This document shows positions 30,340 through 36,762 of a stretch of DNA of 48,520 nt, in pieces. How positions within the stretch are numbered: position 1 is the stretch's first letter; every line of letters starts with the position of its first letter. A program made the translations under genes and the position numbers. The DNA lies in IMG/VR virus record IMGVR_UViG_2711768004_000012, one strand, 5' to 3'. Source of the DNA: a virus (Duplodnaviria > Heunggongvirae > Uroviricota > Caudoviricetes). A model generated the notes under the pieces. It had not been told where the DNA came from. It saw only the letters and a program-made list of their open reading frames with translations, and ran no database searches.

Positions 30340-30936
30340 TTTTCCTCACATATGTCATATAGTAAAGGATTATATATACCGTTGTTTTGGACGCTCAAAC
30401 AGCGAATCAGATCAAATAAAACGCACATTTGTTAACATTTACACAAAGTCTGCGTGGGATATTCTGAAAGAATATCCATAATGTGGAGAGAATCTATTGA
30501 AGTGCATGGTGCCGGGTGCCTCCCGGTGAACAAAATGTTCGTGATACCTGTCGGCGACAGAAAAGGTTAATGGTATCACCCCACCGCACAGGGGGATTCA
30601 CCATGCAGGAGTTTTCTTAGCAAACTCACTGCGCGCCCGGCAACTCCCAACCACATAAAATGCGGAGTTTGTGGCATTTATGCATATAACTCGCAGGAAT
30701 TATCTTAAAAAACTGATGTCGATCCGGATTAAAAAGAAGCAGGTCATCATCAGATGACTGGAAAAAAGGAAAACAAAAAATACTCATCATACAGTTTTGA
30801 TTGCAGGGATGAGCCTGCTATGCACAATATGCAGAATATAAGCAAGATAAAAATATGCAGGCATATTATTTCGGATCTTGTTATTAACACAACCTTTTTA
30901 ATAATCATTTGGCATACAATAAACCAGCCCAAAAAG

Positions 30937-30956: not shown

Positions 30957-31276
30957 GGTCAATACAAAGGATGCTTCGTCTTTATTATAGTAATCTGAGG
31001 CGTCGGGTGTCTTGTATCAGACAACATATTGTCCCGCTAAACAGCGAATTACAAACCACCCTGCAATGATCTCTCATCTCATTTTATATGAGTTGACGAC
31101 ATCAGGATAACGCATCATCAGCCCCTGCCAAGAAATATCAAAACTCCCGCCAGCAATGTGTTATCACAATATTGTAAAAAAAACACAGCACCGAAACTAT
31201 AACTGGTCTCTGTTATAATTTGGAGCAGAAAGACCAGTTGCCCAACTAGCAGCATTCTCCCCTGCTTTCCTGACGT

Positions 31277-31303
31277 AAAAAAACCGCATTAAGCGGTTTT
31301 TTT
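31277..31303 (-). terminator. Intrinsic terminator downstream of Q (tR'-like; A-run / hairpin / T-run, potentially bidirectional)
   Basis: gtaaaaaaaccgcattaagcggtttttttacg: 7-bp stem aaaccgc / gcggttt flanked by A7 and T7; about 80 nt downstream of the Q stop, as expected for the late-promoter terminator that Q-modified RNAP reads through. Confidence 0.7.
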
Positions 31304-31306
31304 ACG

Positions 31307-31383
31307 ATGTCCATGTCTGCAATCCGCCTCGCGATACAGCTTTGCGAAGCATAGCAAAATTGAAGCAGTTTATACGTAAGAAA
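31307..31383 (-). promoter_or_regulatory. Candidate late promoter (pR'-like) / Q-utilisation region between Q stop and terminator
   Basis: Position only (between Q stop and the tR'-like hairpin); -10-like TATAAA on the minus strand at 31374-31369. No strong consensus identified. Confidence 0.35.
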
Positions 31384-32812: not shown

Positions 32813-33092
32813 TTCTCAATCTCTCGATGGCGCAGCGCAGCAGATGCCAGTTGTTCAGGCTGACGAATAAAGTATAAATAAACTGGCTATGGTGTAAAGC
32901 CCCACATAGCATGAACAAACACTACATATCAAATAGCTGGTACAAGGATAGAAATACGACACTTATTATTAAAAACGATTAGATAAATTACATTTTAATG
33001 TTATGCAAAAGTTCTTTTTTATCATAACATTTCAATAAAAGCATTACAGATGCAATCATCCCGTCATCATCAATTATTTAAGGTGGTTAAAC

Positions 33093-33179
33093 ATGGAAAA
33101 TAACAAGTTCGCACATCTCGCTCCTTTTTTATCCGTAATCCTTTTCGCTTGTTGTTTTATATGGGCATTATTTTTATAA
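33093..33179 (+). CDS. Candidate small hydrophobic peptide (28 aa) MENNKFAHLAPFLSVILFACCFIWALFL
   Basis: ATG preceded by strong SD AAGGTGG at 33080-33086 with 6-nt spacing; single predicted TM helix; inside the AT-rich island. Confidence 0.35.
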   Translation: MENNKFAHLAPFLSVILFACCFIWALFL

Positions 33180-33587
33180 AGTAGCCACATGATAAGTTGC
33201 TGGAATCATATTTCCCACTCAAGTCATTAACATTTGATAAGATATATCTAAAAGGACGCCTTTACATTATTTATGCGTATATAATTTATTTATATACACA
33301 GTAAAGGTATCCTGGGAAAATATTTATCGTTAAAAAATACATCATAAATAATTAAGCTGAAATTTCAGAACACAACTAATACACACAATAAGGTTCAGTA
33401 ACAGTAATCTATGTGGACTACATCGAGATTTTTTGATTAAACTTTAATAACTTATTCCTAACACACAGAATGCATAAACTAAAAGTAAAACAAATAGTTA
33501 TACGAAAAACAACCATATTTATTCTATCTTCTCCTCTAATCAACATATCAATTATGTGTTTCATAACAGCTTGACATAACCCTCCAA

Positions 33588-33610
33588 AAGATGCATTTTT
33601 AATGCATGTT
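33588..33610 (+). promoter_or_regulatory. NsrR-type operator-like inverted repeat upstream of the yeaR-like gene
   Basis: aagATGCATttttaATGCATgtt: first half AAGATGCATTT is identical to the NsrR half-site consensus as I recall it; ATGCAT-based 11-1-11 palindrome; a perfect TTGACA lies at 33571-33576. Confidence 0.5.
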
Positions 33611-33625
33611 TTGGAGGAGGTGGTT

Positions 33626-33964
33626 ATGACACACAAGAGAATTCCTAAAGATTGGGTAATCAAACGCTCAACTCCGTTCTTCACAAAAGAGAACGTACCT
33701 TCAGCGTTATTAACACATCATAATACAGCAGCAGGTGTTTTTGGGCAGTTGTGCGTAATGGAAGGCACTGTAACATATTATGGTTTTACTGATGAGAATG
33801 CTACTGAACCGGAGATAAAAGTAGTCATTAATGCTGGCGCTTTTGCAACAAGCCCACCACAATACTGGCACCGTGTTGAACTAAGCGATGATGCTCAGTT
33901 TAATATTAACTTTTGGGTCGCTCCAGACTTTTCGGGCGAAAAAGTCTATAGCACCAAAAAATAG
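33626..33964 (+). CDS. YeaR-like DUF1971 protein (moron)
   Basis: 112 aa MTHKRIPKDWVIKRSTPFFTKENVPSALLTHHNTAAGVFGQLCVMEGTVTYYGF...FNINFWVAP parallels E. coli YeaR (…RSTPFWNK…MHGAVKYLGY…YFNIDFFVAP); strong SD GGAGGAGGTGG upstream. Confidence 0.7.
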   Translation: MTHKRIPKDWVIKRSTPFFTKENVPSALLTHHNTAAGVFGQLCVMEGTVTYYGFTDENATEPEIKVVINAGAFATSPPQYWHRVELSDDAQFNINFWVAPDFSGEKVYSTKK

Positions 33965-34031: not shown

Positions 34032-34584
34032 TAAATATATTGGTTCTACATTGACAGGAGACTTCAACCATAAGAAGTAATCTGAATACTTGAGCAATAA
34101 ATTTACTTAAGATTAATGAGCGCACCTTGCCGGACAAAGATAAACCAAGGTAACACCTTTTTTCTAGCCAGTATGTAATCAATCAGAAAGCCGCTCCATA
34201 AGAACAACAGCAAGACAATAAATTGCCATTACAGCCGCAATAGCCAGCGCACATTTGAGAACCAGCACGACAACCCCCTGTATTAGACGCACACCAGTCC
34301 TGATAAATATGAGGCTGTCTCGTCAGTGATTCAATACAACTATTGGGTATAGTTTCTGTGATTTTATTCTGTAGAAATGGAACACAACAACCAGTCACCA
34401 CCAGCACTTCCTTAAATGCTCTAAGTCAGAAACAAGCCAACATTTTAGTCCGCTTTGAGCGATCTGCAGACATTGCTAGCAGCCTTCTGTGTGAATTCTC
34501 AGGGAGCAGGTCGGCATAGCATCACGTTGAGGCTCTTACCCTACTTGTTCACACCAACCCTAACTCCACAGACTGATTCATAAA

Positions 34585-35586
34585 TTAGTAATCTGCGTGT
34601 TTCGCACTTTTCAGAAATGCTTTCATATTTTCATTAGGTCGCTCAATTTCGAAGTTACTTCCATATAACTCTTGTAATTTTGGCCATAACTTACTTAATA
34701 ACCCTCTCCTGCGATAAAATGGATGTATCCAAACGGTAGATAGGTACGGAGAATTTGCATTTGAATTGTTTATTGTGACCAGCCCAACTAAACATTGTCG
34801 ATAACCACTATTATCCATTGATTGTATTTCTTCGACGAATGGATACGCGATTACATCAGTCCAACCATGATCGGTTGTATCCCATTGCATTCCGTCATGA
34901 CATTCCTTCGACTGATAGCGGCGTAAAGCTACACACGCGAGCTTTTGCCAATCTGGAGAATTAATTGTGATCTCTTCATCGTATGACGCGCCTATTGGAG
35001 CGGGTATTGGTCTGATTAATCCAGCATGGCATTCATCATAGAACTTCATGTTTCCCTCAGAAACGTTGTGTACGTTGGGTTGCTCCATGTGTGCGCCATT
35101 CAAAAATAGCTCTGATAGTAGTGTATCTACACTGTAATCTTTATTGATTATTGTCGGCTTAGAGTTTTTCTTATTAAGGCCGCGAGTAACGATTTTTTGA
35201 TCAATGTTAACAACATGGAATAATCCGTCGGGGAGGCTAGCGAACCACGATGGGGCATCGGACCAGAATAGCATGCCTTTTGTACTTCTTAAGAGTTTAA
35301 TTAAGTTAATACAAGCTTCTTCACTAGTCTTGCCGTTGATGCGAAGTATGTTAGGACTAAAGTAATATTCATCCATATCAGGGAATGCAGCTTCGCAAAA
35401 CTCCTGTACATAATTTAGCACCTGGATTCTACAGAGATCATCATAGCTGGTAATAACTAAGGGGGTATCTTCATTACTATTATGATTATCAATAATGCAA
35501 TCTATAGCGAGACTTACTGCTTTGCGTATCACTTCAGTTGAATCTAACGACTCTAAAAATTTTGTCTTTCGTGTGCGAATATCCAT
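34585..35586 (-). CDS. Hypothetical protein with GNAT-like acetyltransferase C-terminal domain
   Basis: 333 aa; C-terminus ...CLVGLVTINNSNANSPYLSTVWIHPFYRRRGLLSKLWPKL... fits GNAT motif A (beta strand then R-x-x-G-x-hydrophobic); AT-rich; 15 nt downstream of the preceding gene (operon). Confidence 0.5.
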   Translation of the reverse strand: MDIRTRKTKFLESLDSTEVIRKAVSLAIDCIIDNHNSNEDTPLVITSYDDLCRIQVLNYVQEFCEAAFPDMDEYYFSPNILRINGKTSEEACINLIKLLRSTKGMLFWSDAPSWFASLPDGLFHVVNIDQKIVTRGLNKKNSKPTIINKDYSVDTLLSELFLNGAHMEQPNVHNVSEGNMKFYDECHAGLIRPIPAPIGASYDEEITINSPDWQKLACVALRRYQSKECHDGMQWDTTDHGWTDVIAYPFVEEIQSMDNSGYRQCLVGLVTINNSNANSPYLSTVWIHPFYRRRGLLSKLWPKLQELYGSNFEIERPNENMKAFLKSAKHADY

Positions 35587-35601
35587 GTATGACCTGCGCT
35601 A

Positions 35602-36562
35602 TTAAAATTCATGAATGAACGGTTTGTCATCTGGTTGCAAAATGGTGGTTTTATTCGTTGCTACATTTAAACTGTTGTAGAGCATAATTGCCAGGTTCGA
35701 TGCATTTTCAATCAGCGTTTCAAGATCCTGGTCTGTAATCACTACGAGGTTCCCTTCTTTATCCTTTCCACCACGATGCACTAAGTGATTTCGATTGAGG
35801 GTTGCCAATTCAATAGCTTCTATCGGACAGTCTTTTTGTACTTTTATATCGAATGTAGCTTCATAGCGGTCGATTACCTTTTTAGTGCTATGCCAGCTTG
35901 CACTGATCAAGTGTTCCTTGATTGACCTGATTAGCTCTCCCCTAATTTTCTCGATGGGTTCACCCTTGAAAGGCAACGCAGCAATATCTTTGCTTACTTT
36001 AAATTCAGTCTTACCTTTTTCTATACAATTGGCTATGTAGACATCATCTTTCTCTATAGAATTAATGAATAGCTCAACATAAAGCGTTTCCAAAGCTGTA
36101 ATAACATTCGTGTAGAGCAAACTAAGCAAGTGGTTTTTTTGCTGTTGTTCAGTTTTATCTTTTGCAAGTTTTTTTATTTTATCGATATTATCAATGAATT
36201 TTAAATACGGATTACCGGAAGACGTTACAGCGTCGTAGATATCATCATCGTACCAATCATCTATATTATTTGAGTTTCCAGACCAGTCAAAACATTGTGT
36301 TTGTAATTCATCTACTAATTCCTCAATATACTCAGATTTAACATATTGACCGAAGATGGATTGTAGTTCTTCGCTCGCATCATACGGCCCGCCATATATG
36401 TAAGCATAGCCACCTTCTCTACTTTCATACGGACAAGCATTTGCCGGATCTTCAAAGTTTTCAAAGAACCAGTTTTTCATTACTTCGAGTTGATCTTTTT
36501 TGCTTATGTATTTTAAAGATTTTAGTGGAACTTTCTTTCCATTAACCTCGAAAACAATTTTC
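35602..36562 (-). CDS. Hypothetical protein with HEPN-like R-N-x3-H motif (probable GTG start; ORF track extends to 36693)
   Basis: About 320 aa; C-terminal region ...ELATLNRNHLVHRGG... contains R-N-H-L-V-H (Rx4H); SD AAGGGAG before GTG AAA ATT; AT-rich; first gene of a two-gene operon. Confidence 0.45.
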
Positions 36563-36762
36563 ACGATGTAACGCTCCCTTGTATCAATTGCGCAACTATT
36601 ATACCACAGCGAAATACAGGGCATAACCTGCCTCCTTAAACTAACATACCATGAGCCAGCAATGTCCGCTATTGGCACAAAGCGGACAACCACGCTAGCT
36701 CTCCCCTGTGCCAGAAAAATGTCAATTTACATATGAACTAATGCTCTTTGATCTAGTAACGT

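What the first reader, a model, noticed from the sequence alone, without database searches (positions are those of the whole stretch)
33093..33179. Small hydrophobic peptide ORF with a strong ribosome-binding site
A 28-codon ORF (MENNKFAHLAPFLSVILFACCFIWALFL) has a near-ideal SD (AAGGTGG) at optimal spacing and encodes a single predicted transmembrane helix. It lies in the AT-rich island upstream of the yeaR-like gene. Peptides of this kind can be type I toxins, membrane modulators or leader peptides.
Basis: seen in the sequence. Interest (0 to 1): 0.45.

Follow-up and report, generated by a model that had tools for sequence, protein, structure and literature searches.

The report
Unannotated 28-residue prophage membrane peptide gene
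The 28-codon reading frame is a real, conserved but never-annotated gene for a tiny membrane peptide, carried by Rac/Qin-type prophages in about a fifth of complete E. coli genomes; what the peptide does is unknown.

Summary
The ORF (33093-33179, +), its Shine-Dalgarno sequence and its hydrophobic product are all there as described. It is not a chance ORF. A match to this region occurs in 1175 of 5426 complete E. coli genomes. In about 600 of them the only alignable DNA is SD plus ORF. Every one of 150 complete loci recovered through a non-coding upstream anchor keeps exactly 28 codons. Across 18 DNA haplotypes, 25 of 49 changes are synonymous, against 12.6 expected (P<5e-5).

The gene belongs to a roughly 390-bp module next to the DUF1367/Q-type genes of lambdoid prophages. 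It faces a slot whose cargo varies: a yeaR-like gene here, hokD elsewhere, and an S8 peptidase in one phage. That rules out a leader-peptide role for the yeaR-like gene.

The peptide matches no Pfam, NCBIfam, PHROG or PADLOC family and no Rfam RNA. It is unannotated in every listed record. At 87 nt it is shorter than the 90-nt minimum gene length that I recall for Prodigal.

The best reading is a small single-pass inner-membrane protein made from the prophage. A type I toxin remains possible: weak sense and antisense promoter-like sites exist. However, the start region is unusually unstructured and no antitoxin RNA is supported. This is a new member of a known kind and of moderate interest.

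The parts
33093..33179 (+). 28-codon ORF plus TAA, encoding MENNKFAHLAPFLSVILFACCFIWALFL: a polar N-terminus (residues 1-8) followed by a 20-residue hydrophobic helix that runs to the C-terminus
   Evidence: Searches give the sequence. It is intact with 28 codons in 150 of 150 complete loci found through a non-coding anchor. There are 18 haplotypes; 25 of 49 changes are synonymous against 12.6 expected, P<5e-5. Hessa sum is -1.55 kcal/mol.
33080..33086 (+). Shine-Dalgarno sequence AAGGTGG, 6 nt before the ATG
   Evidence: AAGGTG is kept in most alleles and is AAAGTG in the APEC O1-type allele. The start region folds less well than shuffles, z +0.7 to +1.9.
32992..33036 (+). Conserved inverted repeat AATGTTATG-N17-CATAACATT inside the upstream block. 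It is either a 5'-UTR hairpin or two promoter or operator half-sites. The arms are invariant; the spacer is variable in sequence but constant in length.
   Evidence: I5; invariant columns; G-C to G-U change compatible with + strand RNA only; 5' UTR z -1.4 to -2.2.
32964..32969 (+). TATTAT, a candidate -10 of the sense promoter, 129 nt before the ATG. Its TTGYYG -35 partner, present in other alleles, is displaced here by an 8-nt insertion.
   Evidence: TTGCCG-16-TATTAT in strain 042. (TATTAT present in all 142 loci; a TTG-type -35 in 118). This is an inference, not shown.
33073..33099 (-). Candidate antisense promoter. TTTCCA is the complement of the ATGGAAA start of the ORF. AATAAT follows after 15 nt here; TATGAT or CATAAT follows after 16 nt in other alleles.
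   Evidence: 115 of 142 loci have a 5/6 -10 at 16 nt. The count of such sites is not above shuffle expectation. Speculative.
32950..32977 (-). Weak minus-strand hairpin CGTTTTTAATAATAAGTG followed by a T-rich run. It is a candidate terminator of an antisense RNA or of early-right transcription.
   Evidence: the motif is present in 124 of 142 loci. The two substitutions in the window allele keep pairing as G.U only in the minus-strand RNA. RNAalifold does not select the hairpin.
32871..32898 (-). Promoter-like TTTACA-16-TATACT facing the DUF1367-YbcO-DUF1133(Q-like) genes. It forms the left part of the conserved module.
   Evidence: Searches find it in all three alleles scanned. It is conserved in the alignment.
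32813..33200 (.). The conserved module as a whole. It runs from the start codon of the left-hand nin-type gene to about 20 nt past the ORF stop, and homology to other loci ends at both edges.
   Evidence: K-12 Qin shares only the hokD 3' end, starting about 22 nt after the ORF stop.

Best explanation
This is a real protein-coding gene for a 28-residue, single-pass inner-membrane peptide. It belongs to the backbone of Rac/Qin-type lambdoid prophages of E. coli and Shigella.

Shown:
- The reading frame, its length and its amino-acid sequence are under purifying selection.
- SD plus ORF is a local island of conservation.
- The gene stays put while the genes on both sides are exchanged.

Inferred:
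- It is transcribed on its own, against the direction of the phage early-right operon, from a weak promoter about 120 nt upstream.
- It is translated from an open, unstructured start region.
- It inserts with the short polar N-terminus (MENNK.AH) in the cytoplasm and the C-terminus at the periplasmic face.

Most likely mode of action (inference): like other bacterial small membrane proteins, it works as a membrane-embedded helix that binds and modulates a larger host or phage membrane protein through its invariant face (H8, P11, S14, F18, C21, W24/A25, L28). This would give the lysogen a conversion or exclusion phenotype rather than killing the cell. Convergent early-right transcription would shut it off during lytic growth.
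For: - Distribution: a match in 1175 of 5426 complete E. coli genomes. In about 600 of them the alignable block is window 33073-33180, which is exactly SD plus ORF.
- Intactness: all 150 complete loci recovered with a non-coding upstream anchor have an intact 28-codon ORF.
- Selection between the two main alleles: 17 nt differences, 10 at third positions, only 6 residue changes against 10.7 expected (P=0.003); 47% of random placements would create a stop. pN/pS is about 0.25.
- Selection across 18 haplotypes: 25 synonymous of 49 changes against 12.6 +/- 2.9 expected, P<5e-5.
- Other frames: they have fewer synonymous changes or carry stops, and the start codon of the 38-aa antisense ORF is not conserved.
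- Context: four downstream contexts and two left-hand contexts surround the same ORF.
- Membrane helix: all alleles have a negative Hessa insertion energy, and replacements are hydrophobic-for-hydrophobic.
- Start region: less structured than 75-99% of shuffles.
- Helix face: variable residues lie on one face (R=0.45, P about 0.05).
Against: - No transcription, translation or proteomic evidence was available. The peptide strings are in no searchable paper, and strings of the commonest allele are not in the supplements of the Sakai small-ORF study.
- No convincing sigma-70 promoter precedes the ORF in the window allele, and there is no intrinsic terminator after it here.
- Diversity is shallow: at most 18 of 87 nt differ from the window allele, and the family is seen in Escherichia/Shigella only. 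The selection tests therefore rest on few events, and recombination may inflate the spanning-tree count.
- The SD is weakened in the commonest allele.
- The helix-face signal loses significance without one singleton position (P=0.17).
- The proposed partner-binding mechanism is analogy only.
Confidence: 0.5

Rival explanations
1. Type I toxin-antitoxin module. The peptide is a membrane-damaging toxin whose mRNA has a leader of about 120 nt. An antisense RNA of about 110 nt would start from TTTCCA-16-TATGAT, which overlaps the ORF start, and end at the weak hairpin plus T-run in the upstream block. It would pair with the whole leader and keep the toxin off. Loss of the prophage or phage attack would release the toxin.
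For: - Size and hydrophobicity resemble ShoB, DinQ, TisB and ZorO (my own knowledge).
- The ORF sits on a prophage, and in most loci directly beside hokD, a known type I toxin.
- Sense and antisense promoter-like sites and a minus-strand terminator-like hairpin recur across alleles.
- The two substitutions in the hairpin of the window allele keep pairing only in the minus-strand RNA.
- The leader region is more structured than shuffles, z -1.3 to -2.2, and the minus-strand 206-nt RNA has z -2.3.
Against: - No Rfam antitoxin or toxin-leader family matches at E<=1, and no toxin family matches in NCBIfam, Pfam or PADLOC.
- Promoter-like sites are no more frequent than in shuffles.
- The antisense -35 is simply the complement of the conserved start of the ORF, and in the window allele the spacer is 15 nt.
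- The terminator stem has only 5 bp.
- RNAalifold gives a weak minus-strand consensus with no covariation support (-10.6 kcal/mol, covariation term +0.42).
- The SD and start codon lie in an unusually open region, unlike the occluded start sites of hok, tisB, zorO and dinQ mRNAs.
Confidence: 0.27
2. The ORF is incidental. What is conserved is a non-coding DNA or RNA element of the phage backbone on either strand, for example a terminator or anti-terminator region, an operator, or an sRNA lying between the cargo slot and the nin/Q genes.
For: - The non-coding block 100-130 nt upstream is even better conserved than the ORF.
- The last six codons are almost invariant at the nucleotide level.
- The T-rich strand of AT-rich DNA readily yields hydrophobic ORFs.
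Against: - Changes concentrate at third codon positions of the +1 frame (27 of 49) and are synonymous twice as often as expected, P<5e-5.
- No allele among 150 has a stop or frameshift, although 47% of random placements of just 17 substitutions create a stop.
- The + strand RNA over the ORF shows no excess structure, z 0.0 to +1.9.
- No Rfam family matches.
Confidence: 0.1
3. Leader peptide or upstream ORF that controls the downstream yeaR-like (DUF1971) gene by attenuation or translational coupling.
For: It is on the same strand as the DUF1971 gene and upstream of it.
Against: - 446 nt separate the ORF stop from the DUF1971 start, and that gene has its own 17-bp palindrome and SD (I4).
- The ORF is conserved in loci that lack DUF1971 and have a convergent hokD or S8 peptidase gene instead.
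- There is no terminator/antiterminator pair after the ORF, and no run of regulatory codons.
Confidence: 0.03
4. Remnant of a larger gene: the signal peptide of a former lipoprotein or secreted protein, cut off by cargo insertion. Alternatively, a lipoprotein precursor that yields an 8-residue lipopeptide.
For: - Weak matches to lipoprotein and Rz1-like signal sequences (E 0.03-0.24).
- LFAC in this allele and FAGC in phage vB_EcoS-666R9 resemble lipoboxes.
Against:
- The stop codon and about 20 nt beyond it lie inside the conserved module in all four contexts, so the end of the ORF is not a junction artefact.
- tblastn finds no longer relative in phages or plasmids at E<=10.
Confidence: 0.03

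Closest known systems
Chromosomal type I toxins of E. coli: ShoB (26 aa), DinQ (27 aa), TisB (29 aa), ZorO (29 aa), IbsC (19 aa)
   Same: Size is 19-29 residues, essentially one hydrophobic helix. They are encoded in an intergenic region away from any operon. A long leader is plausible here. ShoB, like this peptide, ends in an uncharged hydrophobic tail. (Comparison from my own knowledge of these families.)
   Different: There is no sequence similarity: NCBIfam and Pfam give no hit. No antitoxin RNA is supported. The start region is open rather than occluded. Toxicity is untested.
Hok/Gef family (hokD of Qin, hokW of Sp5)
   Same: It is a prophage-borne small membrane peptide gene in the same slot, between the replication genes and the nin/Q genes. 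In most loci hokD is the immediate convergent neighbour, with about 110 nt between the two stops.
   Different: Hok is about 50 aa with a periplasmic domain, an overlapping mok frame and Sok RNA. This ORF is half that size and unrelated in sequence. It is not part of the hok module: K-12 Qin has hokD with its terminator but not the ORF.
Small inner-membrane proteins of E. coli that act by binding larger proteins: MgtS (31 aa), AcrZ (49 aa), KdpF (29 aa), PmrR (29 aa), or of unknown role such as YohP (27 aa)
   Same: Length, a single TM helix, a short polar end, and having been missed by annotation because of size. One helix face is conserved, as expected for a helix-helix contact (weak).
   Different: Those genes are core-genome genes, and most lie in or next to the operon of their partner. 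This one is on a mobile prophage module with no fixed neighbour that could be its partner. No homology was found.
Prophage morons that encode membrane proteins for superinfection exclusion (HK97 gp15, lambda and Rac SieB)
   Same: A stand-alone gene transcribed against the flanking phage operon, so it could be expressed from the repressed prophage. The product is a membrane protein.
   Different: Those proteins are several times larger. No exclusion phenotype has been tested here. This ORF is part of the conserved backbone module, not of the variable cargo.

Membership tests
Type I toxin-antitoxin system | Small hydrophobic, membrane-targeted toxin peptide (under about 60 aa) | tested here: met
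   28 aa. The best 19-mer Hessa sum is -0.7 to -2.2 kcal/mol across five representative alleles.
Type I toxin-antitoxin system | An antisense or partly complementary sRNA antitoxin, encoded at the locus with its own promoter and terminator | tested here: inconclusive
   An antisense promoter-like site is present (TTTCCA-16-TATGAT/CATAAT in 115 of 142 loci), and a 5-bp hairpin plus T-run in 124 of 142. Such sites are not more frequent than in shuffles. There is no Rfam hit and no covariation.
Type I toxin-antitoxin system | Toxin mRNA folded so that the ribosome-binding site is occluded until processing | tested here: not met
   The 85-nt start regions of four alleles fold less well than 75-99% of shuffles (z +0.7 to +1.65); two 148-149-nt stretches through the ORF give z 0.0 and +1.9. 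Only local folding was tested. Long-range 5'-3' pairing could not be assessed because the transcript ends are unknown.
Type I toxin-antitoxin system | Growth arrest or membrane depolarisation on overexpression, relieved by the RNA | not testable with these tools
   This needs an experiment.
Hok/Gef (Pfam PF01848) | Sequence match to the Hok/Gef profile; about 50 aa with a C-terminal periplasmic domain; mok/sok organisation | tested here: not met
   No Pfam or NCBIfam match at E<=10. The peptide is 28 aa with no residues beyond the helix. There is no Sok match.
Transcription-attenuation or translational leader peptide | Lies immediately upstream of, and is co-transcribed with, the regulated gene, and that linkage is conserved | tested here: not met
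   It is 446 nt from the DUF1971 gene. The downstream gene differs among loci and is convergent in most.
Transcription-attenuation or translational leader peptide | Alternative terminator/antiterminator hairpins overlapping or following the ORF | tested here: not met
   There is no + strand terminator after the ORF in the window and no excess structure in the + strand RNA.
Bacterial lipoprotein precursor | Conserved lipobox [LVI][ASTVI][GAS]C at the end of the hydrophobic segment | tested here: not met
   Residue -1 relative to the invariant C21 is C, G, S, L or F. The commonest alleles have L or F.
Small single-pass inner-membrane proteins (functional class, not a homology family) | Translated ORF of 50 codons or fewer under purifying selection | tested here: met
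   Selection is shown. Translation itself is not shown.
Small single-pass inner-membrane proteins (functional class, not a homology family) | One predicted TM helix; membrane localisation | tested here: inconclusive
   The helix is predicted. Localisation is not testable here.

The most novel reading that the evidence does not exclude
The module is a previously unrecognised type I toxin-antitoxin family. It would comprise a 28-aa toxin plus a cis-antisense RNA of about 110 nt against its leader. It would be fixed at the edge of the cargo/defence hot spot of Rac/Qin-type prophages in about one fifth of E. coli genomes, where it stabilises the prophage or aborts infection and is switched by convergent early-right transcription.
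Probability: 0.2. Interest if true: 0.6.

Novelty: new member of a known kind. Interest (0 to 1): 0.4.

Why it matters
A peptide gene present in more than a thousand complete E. coli genomes, including pathogens such as APEC O1 and EAEC 042, is missing from every annotation checked. K-12 lacks it. By my recollection, automatic gene callers also stop at 90 nt, and this gene is 87 nt.

It adds a family to the poorly charted set of prophage-encoded small membrane proteins. It also marks a precise, conserved boundary of a cargo slot that holds hokD/relBE, a yeaR-like gene or candidate defence genes.

If it proves toxic or confers exclusion, it would be a simple new handle on prophage-host interplay. 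If not, it is one more entry for small-protein catalogues.

Tried and rejected
- Exact look-up of four peptide alleles in the 15-billion-protein collection: absent.
- The search for homologous proteins refuses queries under 40 aa. For the same reason, structure prediction and representative searches were not usable on a 28-mer.
- tblastn against phages and plasmids at E<=10 found only E. coli records, with no longer or more distant relatives.
- Two degenerate codon patterns, built to catch relatives that differ at third positions, found nothing in IMG/VR.
- The N-terminal codon pattern hit only one of 185,579 species representatives, a Shigella flexneri genome.
- Pfam, NCBIfam, PHROGs, PADLOC and Rfam gave no family.
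- Literature: the peptide strings are in no paper. Strings from the commonest (hokD-type) allele — peptide MENNK and PFLSVILF, which both alleles share, and a nucleotide string specific to that allele — are not in the supplements of the Sakai small-ORF study. The Pas sRNA paper concerns another locus. A CFT073 small-proteome preprint could not be opened.
- The SD-occluding hairpin proposed by RNAalifold (SD with codons 10-12) is made of invariant columns, and it is the MFE in only two of the four 85-nt single-sequence folds, each folding no better than shuffles. I rejected it as evidence.
- The antisense promoter reported by the scan just after the stop (TTATCA-17-AATAAT) is not consistently placed in the other downstream contexts (my reading). 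I rejected it.
- The 38-aa antisense ORF (33190..33074) has a start codon that lies outside the conserved module and is absent elsewhere. I rejected it.
- The upstream region of K-12 yeaR does not align with that of the DUF1971 gene here.

Full report
**1. Observation**

The window has ATG at 33093 and TAA ending at 33179. The product is MENNKFAHLAPFLSVILFACCFIWALFL. AAGGTGG lies at 33080-33086, 6 nt before the start.

The SD is good but not ideal. It has a central mismatch to the anti-SD, so UAAGG or AGGUG are the effective pairings. Residues 10-28 give a Hessa insertion energy of -1.55 kcal/mol (position-independent scale values entered from memory). GC content is 29% over 33000-33399.

In Markov-1 imitations of the 813-nt intergenic region, an SD-preceded ORF of at least 25 codons turns up 15% of the time. 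One that also has a TM-like 19-mer turns up 0.3% of the time. The single sequence is suggestive only.

**2. Setting**

The window is a Rac-like lambdoid prophage of a non-K-12 E. coli. Identical DNA in strain LD39-1 is flanked by trkG, the lysis genes, sieB, kilR, racC and recE.

- Left of the ORF, on the minus strand, lie DUF1367, YbcO (DUF1364) and a DUF1133/Q-like antiterminator.
- Right of it, on the plus strand, lies a DUF1971 (YeaR-family) gene at 33626-33964.
- Beyond that come two minus-strand genes: 333 aa with a weak GNAT match, and 363 aa with a weak HEPN/RES-NTD match.

The phage early-right operon runs on the minus strand, so the ORF is transcribed against it.

**3. Conservation**

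The 808-bp intergenic region matches 850 of 5426 complete E. coli genomes by megablast. A 231-bp query around the ORF matches 1175 genomes with blastn. None of the 70 listed records has an annotated feature there.

For about 600 genomes the alignment is about 79% identical and covers only query positions 44-151. That is window 33073-33180, exactly SD plus ORF.

In APEC O1, 042 and EA13 the ORF lies between a nin-type gene and a convergent hokD. K-12 Qin has rem at that position and no ORF. It shares only the hokD 3' end, starting about 22 nt past the ORF stop.

**4. Is it coding?**

A scan of IMG/VR with a non-coding anchor 90 nt upstream of the ORF returned 154 places. All 150 that are not cut by a contig end have an intact 28-codon ORF.

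Together with two induced phages there are 18 DNA haplotypes and at least 14 peptide variants, all of 28 residues.

Comparison of the window allele with the commonest allele:
- 17 differences, 10 of them at third codon positions.
- 6 residue changes, against 10.7 in permutations that keep the base changes (P=0.003).
- 47% of permutations create a stop.
- pN/pS is about 0.25.

On a minimum spanning tree of the haplotypes, 25 of 49 changes are synonymous, against 12.6 +/- 2.9 expected (P<5e-5).

The other frames give 8-22 synonymous changes. The one with 22 is the wobble-aligned antisense frame, which carries a stop in 13 of 14 haplotypes. The 38-aa antisense ORF of the window begins outside the conserved module.

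I conclude that the +1 frame is under protein-level purifying selection. Two caveats apply. Diversity is shallow, and recombination may make some tree events non-independent.

**5. The module**

Homology among loci runs from the start codon of the left-hand gene to about 20 nt past the ORF stop. The left-hand gene is DUF1367, or a 92-aa hypothetical followed by DUF968-RusA-Q in APEC O1.

The downstream neighbour varies:
- DUF1971 plus variable genes here. The cargo differs from LD39-1 over 34497-36665 even though the module is identical.
- hokD, with or without relBE.
- A perfect bidirectional terminator.
- An S8 peptidase plus an FtsH-like ATPase in phage vB_EcoS-683R6.

The ORF is therefore backbone, not cargo, and it cannot be a leader for the yeaR-like gene.

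**6. Signals**

*Plus strand.* The scan finds no sigma-70 site before the ORF in the window. TATTAT lies 129 nt before the ATG in all 142 loci. It is paired with TTGYYG at 16-18 nt in 118 of them. In the window allele an 8-nt insertion displaces that -35.

Between this site and the SD lies an invariant inverted repeat, AATGTTATG-N17-CATAACATT. Its single variable pair is G-C or G-U in plus-strand RNA. The leader is more folded than shuffles, z -1.4 to -2.2. The start region is less folded than shuffles: the four 85-nt start regions give z +0.7 to +1.65, and two longer stretches through the ORF give 0.0 and +1.9. Reduced folding around the start is, from general knowledge, typical of well-translated genes.

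*Minus strand.* TTTCCA, the complement of ATGGAAA, is followed after 16 nt by TATGAT or CATAAT in 115 of 142 loci. In the window allele the spacer is 15 nt and the hexamer AATAAT. A 5-bp hairpin with a T-run occurs in 124 of 142 loci. Together these could give an antisense RNA of about 110 nt covering the leader.

Three points weaken this. Such sites are as common in shuffles. RNAalifold gives -10.6 kcal/mol with a positive covariation term. Rfam has nothing here at E<=1.

**7. Family searches**

- There is no Pfam family. The only NCBIfam and PHROG matches are chance-level hits to lipoprotein and Rz1-like signal peptides. PADLOC gives nothing.
- A lipobox is not conserved: residue -1 is L or F in the commonest alleles.
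- The exact peptides are absent from the 15-billion-protein collection. This fits an 87-nt gene lying below the 90-nt minimum that I recall for Prodigal.
- tblastn finds only E. coli phages and chromosomes.
- Looser codon patterns find nothing further.
- Among species representatives, only a Shigella flexneri genome matches.
- No paper prints the sequence. Strings from the commonest allele — two of the three shared with the window allele — are not in the supplements of the Sakai small-ORF study.

**8. Interpretation**

What is shown is a conserved protein-coding 28-codon gene. What is inferred is that it encodes a single-pass inner-membrane peptide with its N-terminus inside the cell.

Invariant residues are E2, N3, N4, H8, P11, L13, S14, I16-F18, C21, W24, A25, F27 and L28. 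Variable TM positions (9, 10, 12, 15, 19, 20, 22, 23, 26) cluster on one helical face (R=0.45, P about 0.05; 0.17 without position 12). This is weak support for a specific helix-helix contact.

My estimates:
- About 0.85 that the gene is real.
- Within that, I favour a non-lethal small membrane protein that modulates a host or phage membrane protein, giving a lysogenic-conversion or exclusion type of role (overall about 0.5).
- A type I toxin comes second (about 0.27). The start site is open and no antitoxin RNA is supported.
- An incidental ORF over a non-coding element is about 0.1.
- A leader peptide and a lipoprotein remnant are about 0.03 each.

**9. Novelty and score**

The kind is known: an unannotated small hydrophobic protein on a prophage. 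The family is new and widespread, but its function is open. I classify it as a new member of a known kind, with interest 0.4.

The most novel reading still allowed is a new type I toxin-antitoxin family sitting at the boundary of a prophage cargo hot spot (probability about 0.2, interest 0.6).

Noticed in passing
window 30450-30636 (-): Full-length match to the prophage sRNA family STnc100 (RF02076), 86.6 bits against a gathering score of 47, E 3.5e-18. It lies about 750 nt downstream of the Q-like DUF1133 gene.
   Followed up: partly
window 31277-31350 (-) and 31222-31303 (+): Sub-threshold isrK-like matches (21.6 and 20.1 bits; gathering score 50), immediately downstream of the Q-like antiterminator gene. 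This recalls the position of IsrK in Gifsy-1 (my recollection). It may be chance.
   Followed up: no
window 33581-33617 (+): A 17-nt inverted repeat, 94% complementary: CCTCCAAAAGATGCATT/AATGCATGTTTTGGAGG. Its 3' arm runs into the GGAGG Shine-Dalgarno of the DUF1971 (YeaR-like) gene. The core GATGCAT-N5-ATGCATG resembles, from memory, the NsrR operator that controls yeaR-yoaG in K-12. The K-12 yeaR upstream region does not align with it.
   Followed up: partly
window 34497-36665; L001 10685-13969; L168 3642-7035: A variable cargo slot between the small-ORF module and the replication genes.
- In the window: a 333-aa protein with a weak GNAT match and a 363-aa protein with a weak HEPN/RES N-terminal domain match.
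- In LD39-1: three different hypothetical proteins, although the DNA is identical on both sides.
- In many strains: hokD with or without relBE.
- In phage vB_EcoS-683R6: an S8 peptidase plus an FtsH-like ATPase.
This looks like a defence or moron hot spot.
   Followed up: partly
window 32871-32898 (-): Conserved promoter-like TTTACA-16-TATACT (10 of 12), 52 nt or more upstream of the DUF1367-YbcO-Q-like genes. It is present in all three alleles scanned, even where the first gene differs. This suggests that the nin/Q block has its own promoter in these prophages.
   Followed up: partly
L002 4130-4215, L003 4143-4230 (hokD-type loci): The terminal hairpin of the convergent hokD mRNA (CCCGCCGAAGCGGG followed by a T-run on the hokD strand) ends about 20 nt from the small ORF's stop. 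The two genes would therefore share a terminator region. In the L008/L168 type, the site is a perfect bidirectional terminator, AAATCAAACCCGCTACAGCGGGTTTGATTT.
   Followed up: partly
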